The notes under the pieces were generated by a model, which worked only from the letters and a program-made list of their open reading frames with translations, ran no database searches and had not been told where the DNA came from. DNA of 64,000 bases from a virus. Its lineage: Duplodnaviria > Heunggongvirae > Uroviricota > Caudoviricetes. The stretch lies in IMG/VR virus record IMGVR_UViG_3300038492_000258, positions 108,995 through 172,994 of that record. One strand, 5' to 3'. Below, piece by piece: positions 3,352 through 43,189 of the stretch. Position 1 is the stretch's first letter. The number at the start of each line of letters is the position of its first letter. The position numbers were made by a program, and so were the translations under genes.

Positions 3352-3444
3352 CTTTGGTCTATTTTCAAGTTACATGAAAACGCTTAGAAAATGAAATTGG
3401 TGGGAGTGGGAATGCATTCCCACTCCCACCATCGCCACAGGGAG

Positions 3445-4410: not shown

Positions 4411-4500
4411 ATTATTTCCCTGTTGCGTCGAAAACTAGTGTGCCGGGCTTATCCTCACCCGACACACTATGATACCCTATCGTTTGCCGTTTGACAAGTT

Positions 4501-4842
4501 TTAGCCCTGGTTTTCGTCGGGCGTGGTCGTGCGGGAGCCCTTCTTGCTCGTCGCACTGCGGGTGCGGTTAGCGTTCCGGTAGGCCGTATCGACCAGACGA
4601 GCGATAAACGAACCGATCGAGACGGGAAAAGCTTTGCCCGTGCGGGGATCGGTGCCATACTGGCTTTTGAGGTTCGGACGAGCCAGCAGGAATTCGAGCT
4701 GGCTAAGCGTTTCCTGCGGAACCCGGAACGGACGATTGACGAGAGTCGCCTGGATATCGGCCGGGAAGGCAGACGGGCGACCCGGGCCACGGCTCGGAGC
4801 GTCGGCGGTCGAGTTAGCAGAAGCGTTCTTGCGGTTACCCAT
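4501..4842 (-). CDS. ribbon-helix-helix-like DNA-binding protein (GC-rich)
   Basis: About 62% GC versus about 43% for the window; segment NRPFRVPQETLSQLEFLLA fits the beta-strand/helix pattern of RHH (CopG/Arc) proteins. Confidence 0.35.
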   Translation of the reverse strand: MGNRKNASANSTADAPSRGPGRPSAFPADIQATLVNRPFRVPQETLSQLEFLLARPNLKSQYGTDPRTGKAFPVSIGSFIARLVDTAYRNANRTRSATSKKGSRTTTPDENQG

Positions 4843-4939
4843 AACAGATTTTCCTTTCGTTTGTGTTGCCGTTGCGGCAGTTAATTAGTGGGCGTCGTTT
4901 GCCCGATTCGCAGCAATCATATCCGGCCCCAGCCGGAAG

Positions 4940-5338
4940 TCAAATGGATTTTTGAAAATCGACCCTGTAGCGTCTCCCAACCCTACGAATGCGAAATTTA
5001 TTCCGCAAACGCTTGGATTTCCAGAGTCGTTGAGCATTCGTCGAAAAGTTTGCCGAGCTACGTACTTCCCAGCCACGTTTCCTAGCTCGCTCCAAAAGCG
5101 TACTATACATTACAATACCAAGACCCTGCCCACGAAACCCAGGATGCAATTCGATATGCGTTTCCCAGAAACCGTATTTAGTCTTGCAAAGCACCGCACT
5201 ACCTAGATACCAACAATCATCCGTCGTGAATTCAATCCTATAAAAAGGATCCTTCCCAATGGGCGGCAGAGAACCCGGACAAGTAGTCTCATCGTATCCA
5301 CCGGATTGGCGGTAGGTAGTTTTTGTGCGGAGTTTCAT
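4940..5338 (-). CDS. GNAT family N-acetyltransferase
   Basis: Motif A HIELHPGFRGQGLGIVMYSTLLERARKRG (R/Q-x-x-G-x-G/A acetyl-CoA loop). Confidence 0.6.
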   Translation of the reverse strand: MKLRTKTTYRQSGGYDETTCPGSLPPIGKDPFYRIEFTTDDCWYLGSAVLCKTKYGFWETHIELHPGFRGQGLGIVMYSTLLERARKRGWEVRSSANFSTNAQRLWKSKRLRNKFRIRRVGRRYRVDFQKSI

Positions 5339-5356
5339 AACGCCACTACTTTAACC

Positions 5357-5366
5357 GACTGTCGAC
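5357..5366. promoter_or_regulatory. 10-bp perfect palindrome CTGTCGACAG in GNAT promoter region
   Basis: Sits between a TGGACA -35-like and TAAAGT -10-like element (minus strand) about 20 nt upstream of the GNAT ATG. Confidence 0.3.
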
Positions 5367-5540
5367 AGATTGTCCAGCGAAAAATAAAAAATGCTTTCCG
5401 CTTGCACGGCGAGCTTAGCCCGCTATCCTCTCTGCGGCTTAGCCAAGAAAAGATTGGTAGTCTAAAGTGGAGGACAGTGGGTTCTAACCCCAAAAATGTG
5501 AGAGTTAACCGCCTTACCTGATCTTTTCACTATTTCTCTT

Positions 5541-5568
5541 TGACACTAACCCAGAATGGGTTATAATG
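5541..5568 (+). promoter_or_regulatory. near-consensus sigma70 promoter (TTGACA-16-TATAAT)
   Basis: TTGACA at 5541 and TATAAT at 5563; divergent from GNAT promoter. Confidence 0.45.
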
Positions 5569-5574
5569 GTTGTG

Positions 5575-5830
5575 TCCGAGCGACGAGAACAGCTCGGAAC
5601 GTCAGGGGGCACCTGAGCCCGACACCCCTGATCGGCGGCCGGAACGGGAACGTATCTCCTTCGTAAGAAGTTGAGATTGCCCACCGGCCCCCAGTAGCGG
5701 CAACGCGTCGTGCCGCTGGCCCGCCTCCCAACCCACAGGAGCGGGCCCTTAAGTAAGGGAAATCCTGAAGCCGCCAGAACTTTGCGTATTGCAATAGTAA
5801 GGGAAAACTACACACTTCTACAAATTCGGC
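5575..5830 (+). ncRNA. GC-rich structured non-coding RNA candidate
   Basis: About 250 nt at about 60% GC with many nested perfect hairpins (TCCGAGC/GCTCGGA, GCGGCA/TGCCGC, GGCCCGC/GCGGGCC, GTGTC..GACAC); directly downstream of the consensus promoter; the overlapping minus ORF 5561..5815 looks spurious. Confidence 0.3.
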
Positions 5831-5876
5831 ATATTAACCGAATCTATGTATAATTCGGCTTTACAACCGAATCTAA
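5826..5876. promoter_or_regulatory. two copies of palindrome ATTCGG-N8-CCGAAT
   Basis: aattcggcatattaaccgaatc and aattcggctttacaaccgaatc 30 bp apart; a third related copy (ttcggcatattgttccgaa) at 62604..62622. Confidence 0.35.
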
Positions 5877-6256
5877 AGAGACCCCCGGTCCTTCTTATTG
5901 CTATCGAGATATTCACGGAACTGTTCCTCCGTCATATCTTTTAAGAACATATAATGATCATGAAGCTGCCTGAGATGCTTCATGGCTTGCTCAAACGAAT
6001 CACCGCATACAACGCTACAAAAACGAAGTTTTGGATTCTTACAAGGCATAGGGCTATTAACAGTAATAACATGACAATGCCCCATCGCCAAATTCTCAGC
6101 CTTAGACTTACCCAGAACGTACCAGTCTCGTTCCACATAAGTGTAATCATATTGAATGCCATCAATAACGACGGAATCCTCAACCGTTAAATAAGTTTGA
6201 GGTTCCCAATCGTCACCATCCCGCCAATCACAGATATCTGAAAAATAATCGTTCAC
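5873..6256 (-). CDS. hypothetical protein
   Basis: 127-aa ORF. Confidence 0.35.
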   Translation of the reverse strand: MNDYFSDICDWRDGDDWEPQTYLTVEDSVVIDGIQYDYTYVERDWYVLGKSKAENLAMGHCHVITVNSPMPCKNPKLRFCSVVCGDSFEQAMKHLRQLHDHYMFLKDMTEEQFREYLDSNKKDRGSL

Positions 6257-8000: not shown

Positions 8001-8508
8001 CTTCTGAATACCTGCCTGTATCAGGCTGAGAAAGAAAGAAAACAGTATAAATACTACATCATCCGCTCGAACACAGATGCCTCAAAGGACTCTGGCAACT
8101 TGCGTCGGCATATGGTATACCTGGGAGGCCCGATCGTCAACCTCTTTTTTGGATTTGACAGTCGGCCGGATTCGGGTATAATACCGGCATCACCAGAAAG
8201 GACTGATAACATCATGCTAGTGGCATCACTAATTTATCTTGTTAAAACGTGGCTCACTGGAGCCCTGATCTCGGGCGTCTTCGCACTAGGTTATTCTGTC
8301 GGCATCCGAAAACTTTCTATTACACGAGTTGTACAATACTCAGTGAGCTGGCCATATTGGGTCGGCCAAGCGGCCCACCGCGAAATTAAACGGTGATAGC
8401 AGCAACACTCATTCCTATTTGGCTAATAGGAAACCTTTCTTTTCTCAGCTTTCTTAATACTGAATCAAAGAAATTAAGCTGGTTCCAACGCTTACTTTAT
8501 TCAAGTCT

Positions 8509-14474: not shown

Positions 14475-14502
14475 TTGACAACCACTAGTATCGAGGTATA
14501 AT
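14475..14502 (+). promoter_or_regulatory. consensus sigma70 promoter TTGACA-16-TATAAT giving a leaderless transcript
   Basis: TATAAT ends 6 nt before the ATG at 14509. Confidence 0.5.
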
Positions 14503-14508
14503 GAGACC

Positions 14509-16590
14509 ATGAACAAGCAAGAAATTCTTATTAAGAAGCGTGATGCGATCGAAGCTCGTCCGGCAGCTCGTGCTCGTGCGGCAGATCTGAAAGATCCTCG
14601 TGCTTTGGTTTTCCAAGCCGAAGCCATGAGGCTTGGATTTATCCTCAGCGAAGACCTTTTGTCTACCATTAGTCGTCTGAGCGACACCGCAATTATGGCC
14701 CTCTACAAAGAAGTGGTGCCTGTTCTGCGGAACATGGTCGGCGATGATGTCGAGTGGAAGCCGATGTATCCTAACTTCCCGAAGCAAGTTATGGAGGCAC
14801 CGGTTATTGAGCTTTTCCTTAACGCTATCGTTCACTATTGGTCGGGCGGACAATGGACGCCCGATTATGTCGCTGAGCCTCGTTTGCCGGCATTTGAAGC
14901 AACAAAATTCCGCACTCTGTCCCTTGCCGGGAGCGACGACCTAGCTTCTATCTTTACAGAAATTCTGTCCGCAAACGCTTCTGTTACGCCTGCGGATATC
15001 CGTATGCTCACGGAAATGTTTGATCGTGGCGATATTAATGAAGCTCAATTGGCAGCGGCCCTTCCGGATAATATTCCGTTTAGAGAAACTCTCTGCTGGT
15101 TTGTTGGTGAATGTATCGATCGTGGATGGACCGTGACGGGCATGGGAGCACTCAAAACGGCTACCGACGTATTGCGGGTAGCTACCCACCTTTCTCAAGG
15201 AGATGTTTCTCTTGCTGAGAATACTCGCTATCGTAGCTTTAGTCGCCCCTTGCGTAGGGCCTTCGTTGAAAGGTTGGAGCAAGTAGCGAACCAGAACGAT
15301 GTTTTCCGTCATCGTGGTAAATGGGTGCGTCTAGCTCACTCGTTACACGTTGGAGACTTTAGTGCCCAAGCACCTAATTTCTACAACATGATTACGGCTG
15401 CTCGGAGTAATGCTACTAAATATCAAAGCTTTGATGGTCGTGTAGAATCCGCCATTGCAAATCGCGACCGTAAGGGCGTTTGTAGTCTCCTAAAGCAACG
15501 TCCTGGTGTATTCGCACGTCGTCTTGATCATCTTCTGCGAGAATTTGGTCCCCGTGATATTGCACGGGAATTCATTGGTGTGGTTGATAAGGTAGATACG
15601 CGAGTACTGCTACAACTGCATGGTCATTTCAATGGACGTACTCAGAGCGTCGATCGTCGTTTGGTATTCCCGAAGGGCAATATGGGTAAGGCACGTTTGC
15701 TTACTAATACGCTAGAGGCTCTGCCTACGGCAACCGTAAAGCATATTCGTGATGGTATTGAAAGTGCTCTAGAGGCACGTTTTGCGACCCTAGATCCTCT
15801 TGGAAAAGTTTATATCGATAAGACACTTTGGGATTGCCCAATTCCATTGAGCCTACGTTCTGCATCCGAAGGGCTACAAACTGTCGCCCGAGGCACACGA
15901 ATGCCGATTGGGGATAAGGGTACCGTTCGGATGTTTATCTACTGGAAAGGTCGTGACATTGATCTTTCTGGATTCTTGGTAAATGAAGACTTTACGCAAG
16001 AAAGTACTGTCGCTTATTACAATCTAAGAGAAGGTTTCGGATGTCACTCTGGCGATATTACGAATGCTCCTCGTGGTGCTTCTGAGTTTATTGACATTAA
16101 TGTCGATCAAGCTTTGGCTGAAGGTCATCGTTACCTAGTAATGACCGTTCATGTATATTCTGGTCCTACTTTTAAGGAGCACGAAGTTTGTTATGCGGGC
16201 TGGATGACCAGAAGTCATCCTGGCAGTAATGAGATTTACGATCCCAAAACTGTTCAGCACCGCATCGATGTGCAGGCCGATAGCCGCACGGCTGTGCCTG
16301 TTATGTTTGACCTAAAAGAAAGACAAGCGATTTGGCTTGACTTGGTCCAACGTGGTGGTAATCTAAGGCGTCCTAACAATGTTGCGAACAGCAAGGCTGG
16401 CCTTGTGGATTTCATTGATGGGGCATTGAATATGGATAATAAGCCAACGCTCTTCGAGCTATTCGAAATGCATGCAAGAGCACGAGGTACGATCGTTGAC
16501 AATATGAATGATGCCGATAAAGTCTTCTCTTGGTCTGAAGGCACGAAGCCTACGGATGTATCAGAGATTCTTTCAGAGTATCTTGGTTGA
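14509..16590 (+). CDS. large hypothetical protein (693 aa)
   Basis: Long uninterrupted ORF; helical N-terminal two-thirds, C-terminal region with degenerate vWA-like DIDLSGF segment; function unknown. Confidence 0.45.
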   Translation: MNKQEILIKKRDAIEARPAARARAADLKDPRALVFQAEAMRLGFILSEDLLSTISRLSDTAIMALYKEVVPVLRNMVGDDVEWKPMYPNFPKQVMEAPVIELFLNAIVHYWSGGQWTPDYVAEPRLPAFEATKFRTLSLAGSDDLASIFTEILSANASVTPADIRMLTEMFDRGDINEAQLAAALPDNIPFRETLCWFVGECIDRGWTVTGMGALKTATDVLRVATHLSQGDVSLAENTRYRSFSRPLRRAFVERLEQVANQNDVFRHRGKWVRLAHSLHVGDFSAQAPNFYNMITAARSNATKYQSFDGRVESAIANRDRKGVCSLLKQRPGVFARRLDHLLREFGPRDIAREFIGVVDKVDTRVLLQLHGHFNGRTQSVDRRLVFPKGNMGKARLLTNTLEALPTATVKHIRDGIESALEARFATLDPLGKVYIDKTLWDCPIPLSLRSASEGLQTVARGTRMPIGDKGTVRMFIYWKGRDIDLSGFLVNEDFTQESTVAYYNLREGFGCHSGDITNAPRGASEFIDINVDQALAEGHRYLVMTVHVYSGPTFKEHEVCYAGWMTRSHPGSNEIYDPKTVQHRIDVQADSRTAVPVMFDLKERQAIWLDLVQRGGNLRRPNNVANSKAGLVDFIDGALNMDNKPTLFELFEMHARARGTIVDNMNDADKVFSWSEGTKPTDVSEILSEYLG

Positions 16591-16722
16591 TAAATAAAAT
16601 TGAACGGCCACATAATATCTTCCTTCTATATCTACGATTTTGGAAACCTAGATATTAAACTTTCCGTTCCATTATACAAAACAATGCGGCTATAAGCTTC
16701 TCTTCCTTCTATTTTACCAACC

Positions 16723-16852
16723 GGGGGTTGCGGGTTCGAGTCCCGTCAGGCGGCCCTGCCGTCTGTAGCTCAACTGGTAGAGCACCGGTCTTATTCGAAA
16801 CTAGAGAGCCCAATTTCCGCACTTACAAAGGCCCGGCGACGGCAGGGCCTAT
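16723..16852 (+). ncRNA. atypical tRNA-like element
   Basis: T-arm-like GCGGG-TTCGAGT-CCCGT followed by a D-arm-like GTAGCTCAACTGGTAGAGCA enclosed in a 12-bp inverted repeat GGCCCTGCCGTC/GACGGCAGGGCC; does not fold as a canonical cloverleaf. Confidence 0.3.
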
Positions 16853-16854
16853 CG

Positions 16855-16941
16855 CTCTAGATGACAGATGCATATGTTGTTGGTGTAAAGGCAGCACACC
16901 GGCCGAAAGCCGGAGGAACGGTTCGATTCCGTATCTAGGGT
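16855..16941 (+). ncRNA. tRNA-like element with long extra arm and non-canonical anticodon region
   Basis: Acceptor CTCTAGA/TCTAGGG, T arm AACGG-TTCGATT-CCGTA, extra arm CCGGC-CGAAA-GCCGG; no standard 7-nt anticodon loop found. Confidence 0.3.
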
Positions 16942-17252
16942 GATGAATACAAGGTGGCTATTCGAATTCCTTCCTTCTATGATGCTGCACAAGCATCAGC
17001 CTATTAAGCTGACTTTAGGGATTGTAATTTCCACCACTTAAAACATGACGGCTATTCTTACTTCTTCCTTCTACATCAAATTTATTGGAAAATTTTAAAT
17101 AGAGGCTGAAATCTCCGTCATTTCTTACAAGTGAAGTGTATCTGACTGTACCAACGTGGTGACTATTGAGACCGCAAATCTCAATATGGAATCGACAGAA
17201 TGGGGCGGTGCTCAGCTAGCCGTCAAATGTCACCGGACGCTTCACTTTTCAT

Positions 17253-17289
17253 GTCCATGAAAATTTTCATGTACATGAAAGGGCTCGTT
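17253..17289. promoter_or_regulatory. tandem palindromes TTTTCATGT(C/A)CATGAAA x2 upstream of tRNA-Glu
   Basis: ttttcatgtccatgaaaattttcatgtacatgaaa, each unit internally palindromic (TTCATG-N-CATGAA). Confidence 0.3.
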
Positions 17290-17823: not shown

Positions 17824-17900
17824 GGCTCTGGGGCCCGTGAGGACGGGCAGTGGCCTCTAAAACCACTTTGTAGCGGGTTCGACTCCCGTCAGGGCCTCCA
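17824..17900 (+). tRNA. candidate amber-suppressor tRNA (anticodon CUA)
   Basis: Acceptor GGCTCTG/CAGGGCC (7 bp with one G.U), D arm GCCC-GTGAGGAC-GGGC, anticodon arm GTGGC-CUCUAAA-ACCAC with C.A at 31-39 (alternatively perfect 5-bp stem with 9-nt loop, CUA still central), T arm GCGGG-TTCGACT-CCCGT, ends TCCA. Confidence 0.45.
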
Positions 17901-42819: not shown

Positions 42820-43103
42820 CAGATCATACCGAAGAAATCGCCGAGCTTGAGCAACGTGTACGTCGTCTCAAAGAAGAGCAACGTGCATTTAATAACCTAT
42901 CTAAGGCACAAAAAATTGCCGATGCTCTGCACGGCAAGTTATGTCGCCAAAACCATACGGACGGATGTGGTTGGGGATATGAAAGCTGGGATAAGCCAGG
43001 CCATGCCAAAAAAAGATATCTTGACGCAGCAGAAAAAGTGCTGCGTCAAGTGGACTATCCCCGAGCAGTAAAAATTGTGGAAGCACTTGACAGGCTTGCA
43101 TAG
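42816..43103 (+). CDS. hypothetical protein
   Basis: 95-aa ORF. Confidence 0.35.
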   Translation: MTDHTEEIAELEQRVRRLKEEQRAFNNLSKAQKIADALHGKLCRQNHTDGCGWGYESWDKPGHAKKRYLDAAEKVLRQVDYPRAVKIVEALDRLA

Positions 43104-43115
43104 CGTGATATAATG

Positions 43116-43189
43116 GGGGAGATGGTGTAATGGCAGCACGACGGTCTCATAAGCCGTTAGTTCAAGTTCGAATCTTGATCTCCCTACCA
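43116..43189 (+). tRNA. tRNA-Met (anticodon CAU; elongator or Ile2-type), CCA encoded
   Basis: Acceptor GGGGAGA/TCTCCCT, anticodon arm ACGGT-CTCATAA-GCCGT, T arm TCAAG-TTCGAAT-CTTGA. Confidence 0.6.

What the first reader, a model, noticed from the sequence alone, without database searches (positions are those of the whole stretch)
4440..5880. GC-rich acquired island: GNAT acetyltransferase plus RHH-like protein, divergent strongly promoted structured RNA, palindromic operators
Composition jumps from about 43% to about 60% GC. The island carries a GNAT acetyltransferase and a downstream RHH-like DNA-binding protein, which recalls GNAT/RHH toxin-antitoxin pairs (TacT/AtaT acetylate aminoacyl-tRNA), though in reversed gene order. 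A palindrome CTGTCGACAG sits inside the GNAT promoter. Divergently, a near-consensus sigma70 promoter (TTGACA-16-TATAAT) drives an untranslated, very hairpin-rich RNA of about 250 nt. Two ATTCGG-N8-CCGAAT palindromes follow the RNA, and a third related copy lies 57 kb away at 62604..62622, suggesting a dedicated DNA-binding regulator.
Basis: partly seen in the sequence, partly recalled or inferred. Interest (0 to 1): 0.65.

Follow-up and report, generated by a model that had tools for sequence, protein, structure and literature searches.

The report
Orphan phage cassette: mini-acetyltransferase, ORFan, candidate RNA
In an uncultured 182-kb, tRNA-rich phage, this stretch holds a small acetyltransferase-like gene, a GC-rich gene with no known relatives and a probable strongly promoted structured RNA, but nothing supports the proposed toxin-antitoxin system and no part has a relative that would reveal its function.

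Summary
Most of the sequence features are real, but they do not form one GC-rich island. GC is high only in the 113-aa ORF (4501..4842, 62%, GC3 71%) and in a non-coding segment (about 5570..5760, 63-66%). The GNAT-like gene between them has background GC (47%).

The 132-aa protein is a minimal, very basic GNAT-like protein. Motif A is present, and Pfam PF00583 scores 21.0 bits against a 20.7 cutoff. The 113-aa protein has no relative among 1.84 billion representatives and no Pfam, PHROG or PDB match. Its RHH resemblance is a 16-residue motif only.

The defining features of GNAT/DUF1778 toxin-antitoxin pairs were tested and not met.

The TTGACA-16-TATAAT promoter at 5540..5567 is perfect, and a 17-bp palindrome sits in its spacer. 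The GC-rich, ORF-free segment starts at the predicted transcription start and folds better than shuffles (z -2.7 to -3.7). It has no Rfam family, no homologue and no clear terminator, and the opposite strand folds equally well.

The two ATTCGG-N8-CCGAAT sites are a real 24-nt duplication. The "third copy" and the CTGTCGACAG palindrome are at chance level.

Best reading: separate accessory early transcription units, including an orphan stable RNA. Interest is modest.

The parts
4436..4469 (-). 12-bp-arm hairpin (TAGTGTGCCGGG / CCCGACACACTA) just after the stop of the 113-aa gene. Probably its terminator. It overlaps the -10 of the DUF932 promoter-like site.
   Evidence: I2, 92% complementary; TTGTCA-17-TATCAT at 4497..4469
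4501..4842 (-). 113-aa ORFan gene: 62% GC, GC3 0.71, pI 11.1. An AAGGA Shine-Dalgarno sequence lies upstream of the ATG. The protein has an RHH-like beta-strand/helix motif at residues 38-53, unverified.
   Evidence: only self-hits; no Pfam/PHROG/NCBIfam/PADLOC/PDB match; mRNA fold z +0.6; hhalign
4916..4943 (-). Promoter-like site TTGACT-16-TATGAT (10/12) directly upstream of the 113-aa gene, overlapping the GNAT stop codon.
4940..5338 (-). 132-aa minimal GNAT-like acetyltransferase gene: GC 0.47 (background), pI 10.35, motif A RGQGLG, no Shine-Dalgarno sequence, probably leaderless.
   Evidence: Pfam PF00583 21.0 bits vs 20.7 cutoff and PF14542 E 1.1e-4; PDB phmmer hits PA4866/YncA, E 0.005; Foldseek top hits almost all GNATs, E >= 0.024, on a pLDDT-51 model; JGI name 'GNAT superfamily N-acetyltransferase'
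5348..5376 (-). Weak promoter-like site TGGACA-17-TAAAGT (9/12). Its -10 ends 9 nt before the GNAT ATG. The palindrome CTGTCGACAG (5359..5368) lies in the spacer.
   Evidence: palindrome not above chance
5450..5526 (+). Degenerate tRNA-like sequence with anticodon CUA and a decayed T-arm. Sub-threshold, possibly a tRNA relic.
   Evidence: cmscan tRNA 20.6 bits, E 0.29; found by ARAGORN only in permissive -mt mode; not a close copy of the phage's real tRNA(CUA)
5540..5567 (+). Perfect sigma-70 consensus promoter TTGACA-16-TATAAT. Its spacer and -10 region carry the 17-bp perfect palindrome TAACCCAgaaTGGGTTA (5547..5563), an operator-like site.
5574..5822 (+). Candidate stable structured RNA. 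It has two 5' GC-rich hairpins and a multi-branched domain (5633..5775) with a GUAA tetraloop hairpin. A 3' tail carries AGTAAGGGAAA twice (5752, 5796). The 3' end is undefined and could extend to about 5895.
   Evidence: z -3.7, -2.7; 11-mer repeat; no coding signal; no Rfam family; no homologue in 678 kb
5823..5875 (.). Two 24-nt direct repeats (AATTCGGC-N5-AACCGAATCTA), 29 nt apart. Each contains ATTCGG-N8-CCGAAT. They lie between the RNA and the stop codon (5873..5875) of the convergent 127-aa gene.
5879..5891 (.). Weak 4-5-bp GC hairpin. T-rich tracts follow on both strands: CTTTAGATTC on the minus strand and TTCTTATT on the plus strand. It is the only terminator-like signal near the RNA's 3' side.
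   Evidence: minus strand hit; + strand read directly

Best explanation
Window 4436..5895 is a lineage-specific accessory segment in the minus-strand early arm of an uncultured 182-kb, tRNA-rich phage. It holds three separate transcription units, not one island or one system.

(1) A leaderless or near-leaderless mRNA encodes a 132-aa, very basic, minimal GNAT-fold protein. I infer that it uses acetyl-CoA to modify a host or phage macromolecule early in infection.

(2) A separately promoted and terminated gene encodes a 113-aa, very basic ORFan protein of foreign composition. I infer a small nucleic-acid-binding or regulatory protein.

(3) On the opposite strand, host sigma-70 RNA polymerase starts at about 5574 from a perfect consensus promoter. 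It makes a stable, untranslated, GC-rich structured RNA of about 250-320 nt. A dimeric DNA-binding protein probably shuts this promoter off through the 17-bp palindrome in its spacer.

The two 24-nt hairpin repeats sit where this transcript meets the convergent 127-aa gene. They most likely mark the boundary of the two units, as pause/termination sites or protein-binding sites.

Shown: the sequence features, their statistics and the absence of relatives. Inferred: acetyltransferase activity, DNA binding, the strand and discreteness of the RNA, and every functional link.
For: Phage context:
- The window has 28 tRNAs, a CCA-adding enzyme, two RNA ligases, NAMPT and a DNA ligase.
- Only identical contigs exist; the longest contig carrying these proteins is 182,158 bp.

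GNAT:
- Motif A and Pfam PF00583 sit just above the cutoff.
- PDB phmmer hits at E<0.5 are mostly GNATs. Foldseek top hits are GNATs.
- GC equals the background.

Separate units:
- A 10/12 promoter sits between the GNAT and 113-aa genes.
- A hairpin follows the 113-aa gene at 4436..4469.

113-aa ORF as coding:
- GC3 is 0.71, above GC1/2.
- The mRNA has no excess structure, z +0.6.
- A Shine-Dalgarno sequence is visible.

RNA:
- The promoter is a 12/12 match. The other perfect copies sit directly before genes or a tRNA.
- The GC jump begins at the predicted start.
- The gap has no coding signal.
- Fold z is -2.7 to -3.7.
- A CUUC-GUAA-GAAG tetraloop hairpin is present on the + strand only.

Palindrome in the promoter.

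Lineage-specific:
- The syntenic relative from the same sample lacks all parts.
- No relatives were found in phage, plasmid, viral, genome or protein collections.
Against: - There is no comparative evidence: every contig found is 100% identical, so covariation cannot be tested.
- The minus strand of the RNA region folds at least as well, -129.3 kcal/mol, z -4.05.
- The genome-wide regression of MFE on GC gives only z -0.7 for the window.
- No canonical intrinsic terminator follows the RNA.
- The GNAT assignment rests on about 50 residues around motif A and on a pLDDT-51 model.
- An open frame of 113 codons in 62% GC DNA is not very improbable by chance. By my estimate it is about 0.04 per frame, and two overlapping ORFs of 84 and 107 aa also exist.
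- Nothing links the palindromes to any protein.
Confidence: 0.45

Rival explanations
1. Counter-defence operon of the acr-aca type. The mini-GNAT is an enzymatic inhibitor that acetylates a host defence protein, as AcrVA5 acetylates Cas12a. The downstream 113-aa basic protein is its DNA-binding repressor (Aca-like), acting on inverted repeats in the promoter.
For: - The order is effector first, small putative regulator second, on one strand.
- The GNAT core of about 92 residues (37-128 in the model) matches the size class of minimal GNATs. The best Pfam E-value is to PF14542.
- AcrVA5 is a roughly 12-kDa acetyltransferase Acr. aca genes lie downstream of acr genes and repress the acr promoter (PMC7556299).
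- The genes lie in an early, sigma-70-promoted, variable region.
- A palindrome lies in the spacer of the putative GNAT promoter.
Against: - No sequence similarity to AcrVA5 appears among PDB chains at E<=10.
- The 113-aa protein has no HTH or any other domain hit.
- The 113-aa gene has its own 10/12 promoter 97 bp after the GNAT gene.
- The 10-bp palindrome is at chance level.
- There is no PADLOC or PHROG hit.
- The host and its defence systems are unknown.
Confidence: 0.17
2. One reading: a GNAT/RHH type II toxin-antitoxin pair in reversed order. The GNAT acetylates aminoacyl-tRNA and the 113-aa RHH protein neutralises it and autoregulates. The RNA may be a further regulator.
For: - The small GNAT lies next to a small basic protein whose residues 38-53 (PFRVPQETLSQLEFLL) align with the beta-strand/helix-A of Arc/Mnt/CopG, P 0.008.
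- The single-sequence model has helices at 43-54 and 76-93.
- The GNAT is very basic, pI 10.35, which is compatible with a nucleic-acid substrate.
- The phage is heavily invested in tRNA biology.
Against: - GNAT toxins are defined by association with DUF1778 (RHH) antitoxins and form one 'true TA clade' (PMC9177977).
- No DUF1778 or RHH hit appears at E<=10.
- TacT, AtaT and KacT are not among PDB hits at E<=10, whereas ordinary GNATs are.
- The GNAT is 132 aa with an unstructured N-terminal third.
- The order is reversed, with a 97-bp spacer carrying a separate promoter.
- The hhalign probability is only 4.9%.
- The two genes differ by 15 points of GC, so they were not acquired together.
Confidence: 0.06
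3. The structured element belongs to the minus strand. It would be a long structured leader or intergenic element (5872 down to 5339) of a read-through transcript from the 127-aa gene into the GNAT gene. It would act in cis as an attenuator, riboswitch-like element or processing site. The + strand promoter would serve only for transcriptional interference.
For: - The minus strand folds to -129.3 kcal/mol, z -4.05, better than the + strand.
- The regression z for minus-strand window 5626 is -2.6.
- All flanking genes are on the minus strand.
- The GNAT-proximal promoter is weak, 9/12.
- The only Rfam near-hit in the region (cyano_het_sRNA, 17.5 bits, E 0.44) is on the minus strand over the hairpin repeats.
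Against: - A 12/12 promoter pointing the other way, with the GC-rich segment starting exactly at its predicted start, is hard to ascribe to chance.
- All helices are Watson-Crick on both strands, so the lower minus-strand energy comes mainly from extra G-U options.
- The GNRA tetraloop exists only on the + strand.
- A terminator-like hairpin and the two hairpin repeats lie at the end of the 127-aa gene.
- No Rfam cis-regulatory family matches.
Confidence: 0.12
4. No function: the GC-rich non-coding segment, and possibly the 113-aa frame, are decaying remnants of DNA captured from a high-GC source. The hairpins would be by-products of composition.
For: - There are no relatives anywhere.
- The regression z is only -0.7.
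- The neighbouring tRNA-like relic shows that decay occurs here.
- Three overlapping long frames lie in the 4470..4890 patch.
Against: - An intact perfect promoter, an intact palindrome and an ORF with a GC3 excess, SD, promoter and terminator are not expected of decaying DNA.
- The fold is better than dinucleotide shuffles of the same composition. The equally GC-rich 113-aa region is not.
Confidence: 0.12

Closest known systems
GNAT/DUF1778 (RHH) type II toxin-antitoxin systems (TacAT, AtaRT, KacAT, ItaRT)
   Same: A GNAT-fold protein sits next to a small basic protein that carries an RHH-like strand-helix motif. The genomic context is rich in tRNA genes and tRNA enzymes.
   Different: - No DUF1778/RHH domain hit.
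- No detectable affinity to the toxin clade.
- Reversed order, with a 97-bp spacer and a separate promoter.
- The GNAT is shorter (132 aa, core about 92 aa).
- The two genes have different base composition.
acr-aca operons, in particular the acetyltransferase anti-CRISPR AcrVA5
   Same: A minimal GNAT carried by a mobile element is followed by a small putative DNA-binding protein. The setting is an early, variable region with an inverted repeat in the promoter (PMC7556299).
   Different: - No sequence similarity to AcrVA5 or to any Aca family.
- No HTH.
- The downstream gene has its own promoter.
- The palindrome is not statistically supported.
- The host defence repertoire is unknown.
Minimal GNAT proteins (Pfam PF14542 Acetyltransf_CG; E. 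coli YjdJ, PDB 5i0c)
   Same: The lowest Pfam E-value is to PF14542 (1.1e-4). The predicted core is beta-beta-beta-alpha-beta-alpha-beta-beta without the N-terminal arm. 5i0c is among the Foldseek hits.
   Different: - The score (22.7 bits) is below the family cutoff (30).
- There is an extra N-terminal tail of about 36 residues, predicted disordered.
- The pI is very basic.
Stable small RNAs encoded beside phage tRNA genes (T4 species 1 and 2 RNAs; Y RNA-like YrlA, Rfam RF02553)
   Same: An untranslated, structured RNA lies in the tRNA-bearing part of a large phage genome and is transcribed by host polymerase. The same phage carries a sub-threshold YrlA-like element at 16722..16787. The T4 comparison is from my own knowledge.
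   Different: - No tRNA-like module and no match to RF02553 or any other Rfam family.
- It is larger and more GC-rich.
- It stands alone on the strand opposite to its neighbours.

Membership tests
GNAT superfamily (Pfam clan Acetyltrans) | Acetyl-CoA-binding motif A (R/Q-x-x-G-x-G/A after beta4, followed by helix alpha3) | tested here: met
   RGQGLGIVMYSTLLERARKRG at residues 68-88 aligns to motif A of PA4866/YncA (E 0.005). PF00583 scores 21.0 bits vs a 20.7 cutoff.
GNAT superfamily (Pfam clan Acetyltrans) | Overall GNAT fold (mixed beta-sheet with a beta4/beta5 V-shaped splay) | tested here: inconclusive
   The single-sequence AF2 model has pLDDT 51. Foldseek top hits are almost all GNATs, but with E >= 0.024 and TM 0.3-0.4.
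GNAT/DUF1778 type II toxin-antitoxin | Adjacent antitoxin with a DUF1778 (COG4453) RHH domain | tested here: not met
   No Pfam family for the 113-aa protein at E<=0.1 or E<=10, full length or core. No NCBIfam or PDB hit. Definition taken from PMC9177977.
GNAT/DUF1778 type II toxin-antitoxin | Toxin belongs to the TacT/AtaT/KacT clade | tested here: not met
   phmmer against all PDB chains at E<=10 returns ordinary GNATs (PA4866, YncA) and none of the solved toxins. No PADLOC hit.
GNAT/DUF1778 type II toxin-antitoxin | Compact bicistronic operon with the antitoxin upstream of the toxin | tested here: not met
   The GNAT is upstream. A 97-bp spacer carries TTGACT-16-TATGAT (10/12).
GNAT/DUF1778 type II toxin-antitoxin | Growth arrest by acetylation of aminoacyl-tRNA, relieved by the partner protein | not testable with these tools
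   Needs expression and LC/MS.
Ribbon-helix-helix (MetJ/Arc) DNA-binding proteins | N-terminal beta-strand followed by two helices, forming a dimer | tested here: inconclusive
The AF2 monomer shows helices at 43-54 and 76-93 with coil at 36-42, at pLDDT 57. No fold match.
acr-aca operon | Downstream gene belongs to a known Aca family or has an HTH DNA-binding domain | tested here: not met
   No domain hit of any kind.
acr-aca operon | Inverted-repeat operator in the acr promoter | tested here: inconclusive
   CTGTCGACAG lies in the spacer of a 9/12 promoter-like site. There are 3 such 10-bp palindromes in the region against 1.6 expected.
acr-aca operon | Inhibition of a CRISPR-Cas or other defence system | not testable with these tools
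   The host is unknown and no assay is possible.
Any Rfam 15 RNA family | Covariance-model score at or above the gathering threshold | tested here: not met
   No hit in 5565..5900 except cyano_het_sRNA at 17.5 bits vs 35.7 (E 0.44, minus strand, over the hairpin repeats).
Intrinsic (Rho-independent) terminators, for the ATTCGG-N8-CCGAAT hairpins | GC-rich stem directly followed by a U-tract | tested here: not met
   The stems are 6 bp with 8-nt loops and 3 G-C pairs. The tails are CTATGTAT and CTAAAGAG on the + strand. Neither was reported by the terminator scan.

The most novel reading that the evidence does not exclude
The 250-320-nt transcript from the consensus promoter is the first member of a new class of phage-encoded structured RNA. 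It would work together with its two very basic neighbours, for example as the RNA substrate, guide or RNA antitoxin of the mini-GNAT, or as a decoy for a host RNA- or tRNA-targeting defence. The 113-aa protein would be the dedicated repressor acting at the promoter palindrome and the hairpin repeats.
Probability: 0.08. Interest if true: 0.8.

Novelty: new member of a known kind. Interest (0 to 1): 0.33.

Why it matters
If the RNA is real, it adds an abundant early, host-polymerase-driven structured RNA with no known family to the few known phage-encoded stable RNAs. It comes from a phage that also carries 28 tRNAs, tRNA repair enzymes and a Y RNA-like element. Such phages are a natural place to look for RNA-based host takeover or counter-defence.

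The mini-GNAT would be one more candidate for enzymatic, acetylation-based modification of host targets by phages. With only one sequence and no relatives, none of this can be tested by computation. The practical value for now is a precise list of coordinates for transcript mapping and cloning.

The analysis also shows that the toxin-antitoxin label should not be attached to this locus.

Tried and rejected
Searches for relatives:
- blastn of the locus and of 20 kb against INPHARED phages: none.
- blastn against PLSDB plasmids: none.
- tblastn of both proteins against phages: nothing meaningful.
- k-mer/HMMER searches of the 113-aa, GNAT and DUF932 proteins in 5.8 billion clusters: self only.
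- Exhaustive phmmer of the 113-aa protein against 1.84 billion representatives: self only.
- IMG/VR scans with four local proteins: none.

Related loci:
- The neighbouring AAA ATPase gave 36 loci from large uncultured phages.
- None holds any part of the locus, by tblastn, blastn or nhmmer, or by a single-sequence covariance model over 678 kb.
- I extended the closest syntenic relative leftwards. It has tRNAs but no GNAT, 113-aa gene or RNA.

Pattern scans:
- The doubled AGTAAGGGAAA motif in viral and GTDB genomes returned only coding or tandem-repeat chance hits.
- A 23-mer of the RNA in GTDB returned none.
- Paired ATTCGG-N8-CCGAAT sites in metagenomes returned 29 unrelated repeat families. 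Examples are arrays upstream of a conserved gene on three unrelated contigs and a site on a bacterial contig with a histidine kinase. I rejected these as homologues.

Identities considered for the RNA and rejected:
- tRNA, tmRNA or intron-containing tRNA.
- All Rfam families, including RNase P, 6S, Y RNA, group I/II introns and ribozymes.
- A protein-coding reading.

Other:
- A CsrA-type sponge was considered. Six GGA triplets are about what composition predicts by my estimate, so I dropped it.
- Structure prediction of both proteins gave low-confidence models.


Full report
**Context**

The window comes from an uncultured phage.
- It carries 28 tRNA genes, a CCA-adding enzyme, two RNA ligases, NAMPT and a DNA ligase.
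- It has no nucleotide match in 50,697 GenBank phages.
- The only other contigs that carry the locus are 100% identical to the window. The longest contig carrying these proteins is 182,158 bp.
- The nearest cultured relatives of a neighbouring AAA ATPase are jumbo phages such as Ralstonia phiRSL1, at about 45% identity over half the protein.
- Positions 1 to about 8000 are a block of minus-strand genes: HNH endonuclease, tRNA-Met, tRNA-Ala, tRNA-Gln, small ORFs and a DUF932 protein. The plus-strand block starts at the consensus promoter at 8155.

Mostly, with corrections.

Composition is not one 1.4-kb island.
- In 100-nt windows, GC is 0.57-0.67 over 4500..4850 and 0.63-0.66 over 5550..5750.
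- It is 0.41-0.53 in between.
- The GNAT-like gene is 0.47 GC against 0.449 for the window.
- These two patches are the largest GC-rich stretches in the 64 kb.

The promoter is confirmed.
- TTGACA-16-TATAAT at 5540..5567 is a 12/12 match.
- The window holds four perfect 16-nt-spaced copies, all on the + strand. Matches with up to 1 mismatch number 9, against 0.52 expected.
- The other perfect copies lie directly in front of genes or a tRNA. The motif therefore looks functional in this phage.

The two ATTCGG-N8-CCGAAT sites are exact.
- They are the cores of a 24-nt direct repeat with 29-nt spacing.
- Six-bp arms with an 8-nt spacer occur 3 times in the region against 0.33 expected (P about 0.003).

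The 'third copy' does not hold up.
- It is at 62588, not 62604.
- It has a 9-nt spacer and an imperfect arm.
- It shares only a 12-mer with the first copy.

CTGTCGACAG exists, but 10-bp palindromes are expected 1.6 times in the region and three are seen. The promoter it sits in is only a 9/12 match.

**The 132-aa protein (4940..5338, minus strand)**

- Pfam gives PF00583 at 21.0 bits (cutoff 20.7) and PF14542 at E 1.1e-4.
- phmmer against PDB aligns residues 61-114 to motif A and helix alpha3 of PA4866 and YncA (E 0.005).
- A single-sequence AlphaFold model is poor (pLDDT 51). It still has the strand-strand-strand-helix-strand-helix-strand-strand order of a GNAT core from residue 37. Its Foldseek hits are almost all GNATs, at E >= 0.024.
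- JGI also annotated it as a GNAT.
- It has no relative in the 5.8-billion-cluster protein collection or in phages.
- It is very basic, pI 10.35.

I accept it as a divergent minimal GNAT-like protein. Activity is inferred, not shown.

It lacks a Shine-Dalgarno sequence. The -10-like TAAAGT ends 9 nt before its ATG. The perfect promoter at 14475 ends 6 nt before the ATG of a 693-aa ORF. Leaderless mRNAs therefore seem to be used in this phage.

**The 113-aa protein (4501..4842, minus strand)**

Only self-hits were found in the k-mer search and in an exhaustive phmmer of 1.84 billion representatives. It has no Pfam, PHROG, NCBIfam, PADLOC or PDB match and no tblastn hit in phages.

Several features favour a real gene:
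- GC3 (0.71) exceeds GC1/2 (0.59/0.57).
- An AAGGA lies 8-9 nt before the ATG.
- A 10/12 promoter (TTGACT-16-TATGAT, 4943..4916) lies upstream.
- A 12-bp hairpin follows the stop codon.
- The mRNA is not unusually structured, z +0.6.

One caution applies. An open frame of this length in 62% GC DNA is not very rare by chance, and two overlapping frames of 84 and 107 aa exist.

The RHH idea rests on a resemblance only.
- hhalign against Arc/Mnt/CopG aligns residues 38-53 (PFRVPQETLSQLEFLL) to the strand/helix-A segment, with P 0.008 and probability 4.9%.
- The low-confidence model has helices at 43-54 and 76-93.
- It has no fold match.

The protein is very basic, pI 11.1. Nucleic-acid binding is plausible but unproven.

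**The toxin-antitoxin reading**

GNAT toxins are defined by their DUF1778 (RHH) antitoxin partner and form one clade (PMC9177977). The defining features fail here:
- No DUF1778 hit.
- No affinity to TacT/AtaT/KacT among PDB chains, although ordinary GNATs are found.
- Reversed gene order.
- A 97-bp spacer with its own promoter.
- A 15-point GC difference between the two genes.

I rate this model at about 6%. An acr-aca-like arrangement explains the gene order better: effector first, regulator second, with the AcrVA5 precedent (PMC7556299). It has no positive evidence beyond that order.

**The RNA candidate**

The 534 nt between the GNAT start and the stop of the 127-aa gene hold no convincing ORF.
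- The GC-rich segment begins within a few bases of the start predicted from the -10 box.
- The + strand folds into two 5' hairpins, then a multi-branched domain that includes a CUUC-GUAA-GAAG hairpin.
- A less structured tail carries AGTAAGGGAAA twice, 44 nt apart. This 11-mer occurs nowhere else in the window.
- Shuffle z-scores are -3.7 (5570..5880) and -2.7 (5574..5822).

Evidence against:
- The minus strand folds as well, z -4.05.
- A genome-wide regression of MFE on GC puts the window at z -0.7, and several other windows fold better than their GC predicts.
- There is no U-tract terminator. The best candidate is a weak 4-5-bp hairpin at 5879..5891.

No family or homologue was found:
- No Rfam family matches, even with permissive filters.
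- No tRNA, tmRNA or intron-containing tRNA is detected.
- nhmmer, blastn and a single-sequence covariance model find nothing in 678 kb of related loci.
- Pattern scans of IMG/VR and GTDB returned only chance hits.

I estimate about 60% that a discrete + strand RNA is made. Its function is unknown.

The promoter spacer holds a perfect 17-bp palindrome, TAACCCAgaaTGGGTTA, unique in the window. I read it as an operator.

**The hairpin repeats**

They lie exactly between the RNA and the stop codon of the convergent 127-aa gene. They lack terminator tails.

A metagenome scan for paired sites returned 29 unrelated repeat families. The motif itself is therefore not diagnostic of any known regulator. 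They may be binding sites or a boundary element. This is inference.

**Is it acquired?**

- The closest syntenic relative available is a 177-kb phage from the same sample. Its AAA ATPase is 40% identical, and it has the same tRNA-Met/tRNA-Ala then ATPase layout. It has none of GNAT, the 113-aa gene, the RNA, DUF932 or the 127-aa gene.
- The segment is therefore lineage-specific.
- No donor can be named, and the insertion boundaries cannot be drawn.

**Verdict**

- The sequence features are largely real.
- The unifying 'island plus toxin-antitoxin plus dedicated regulator' story is not supported.
- The most defensible reading is three separate accessory early units: a mini-GNAT, a foreign-composition ORFan and an orphan, strongly promoted structured RNA.
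- Interest is modest. It would rise sharply only if transcript mapping confirms the RNA.

Noticed in passing
window 16590..17282, esp. 16722..16787 (+): A 690-nt ORF-poor gap upstream of tRNA-Glu holds a sub-threshold Y RNA-like (YrlA, RF02553) match: 42.3 bits, E 7e-8, gathering score 69. It has a permuted tRNA-like module. A second T-arm-like GGTTCGATTCC lies near 16920. The phage may encode a Y RNA-like RNA alongside its RNA ligases.
   Followed up: partly
window 16619, 16702, 16970, 17064 (+): CTTCCTTCTA occurs four times, only in this 450-nt stretch. Each copy is preceded by a GGCYAT-like element. This could be a phage-specific promoter or a processing signal flanking the YrlA-like element.
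   Followed up: partly
window 17824..17900 (+) and L003 13910..13985: Both this phage and its relative from the same sample carry a tRNA with anticodon CUA (an amber suppressor, labelled 'Pyl' by ARAGORN). In L003 it sits right behind a perfect consensus promoter. Amber read-through or recoding in this phage group was not examined.
   Followed up: no
window 5450..5526 (+): A degenerate tRNA-like sequence with anticodon CUA and a decayed T-arm (cmscan 20.6 bits, E 0.29; ARAGORN only in -mt mode) lies just upstream of the strong promoter. It is not a close copy of the real tRNA(CUA).
   Followed up: yes
window 14475..14511 and 5336..5376: The -10 box of the perfect promoter at 14475 ends 6 nt before the ATG of the 693-aa ORF. 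The GNAT's -10-like box ends 9 nt before its ATG. Leaderless mRNAs seem likely in this phage.
   Followed up: no
window 43087..43116 (+): A perfect TTGACA-16-TATAAT ends one base before the 5' end of tRNA-Met (43116). A standard start site would therefore fall inside the acceptor stem. Either the start is unusually close or this promoter serves something else.
   Followed up: no
window 57501..57875 (+), 35001 (+), 62751 (+), 46751 (+): These 250-nt windows fold much better than their GC content predicts (regression z -4.2, -3.1, -2.8, -2.7), more so than the finding itself. The region at 57.5 kb has no long inverted repeat and lies inside ORFs.
   Followed up: partly
window 3398..3431 (-): A very strong 15-bp-stem terminator follows the DUF932 gene. 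It ends the transcription unit downstream of the finding.
   Followed up: no
L046 3897..3972, L047 13934..14060, L057 1097..1172: On unrelated metagenome contigs, arrays of 3-6 tandem 28-nt units (AAATTCGG-N8-CCGAAT-N7) sit directly upstream of a conserved gene. In L046, my own translation gives a product that begins MIAVITGDIINS. This looks like an autoregulatory operator array unrelated to this phage.
   Followed up: partly
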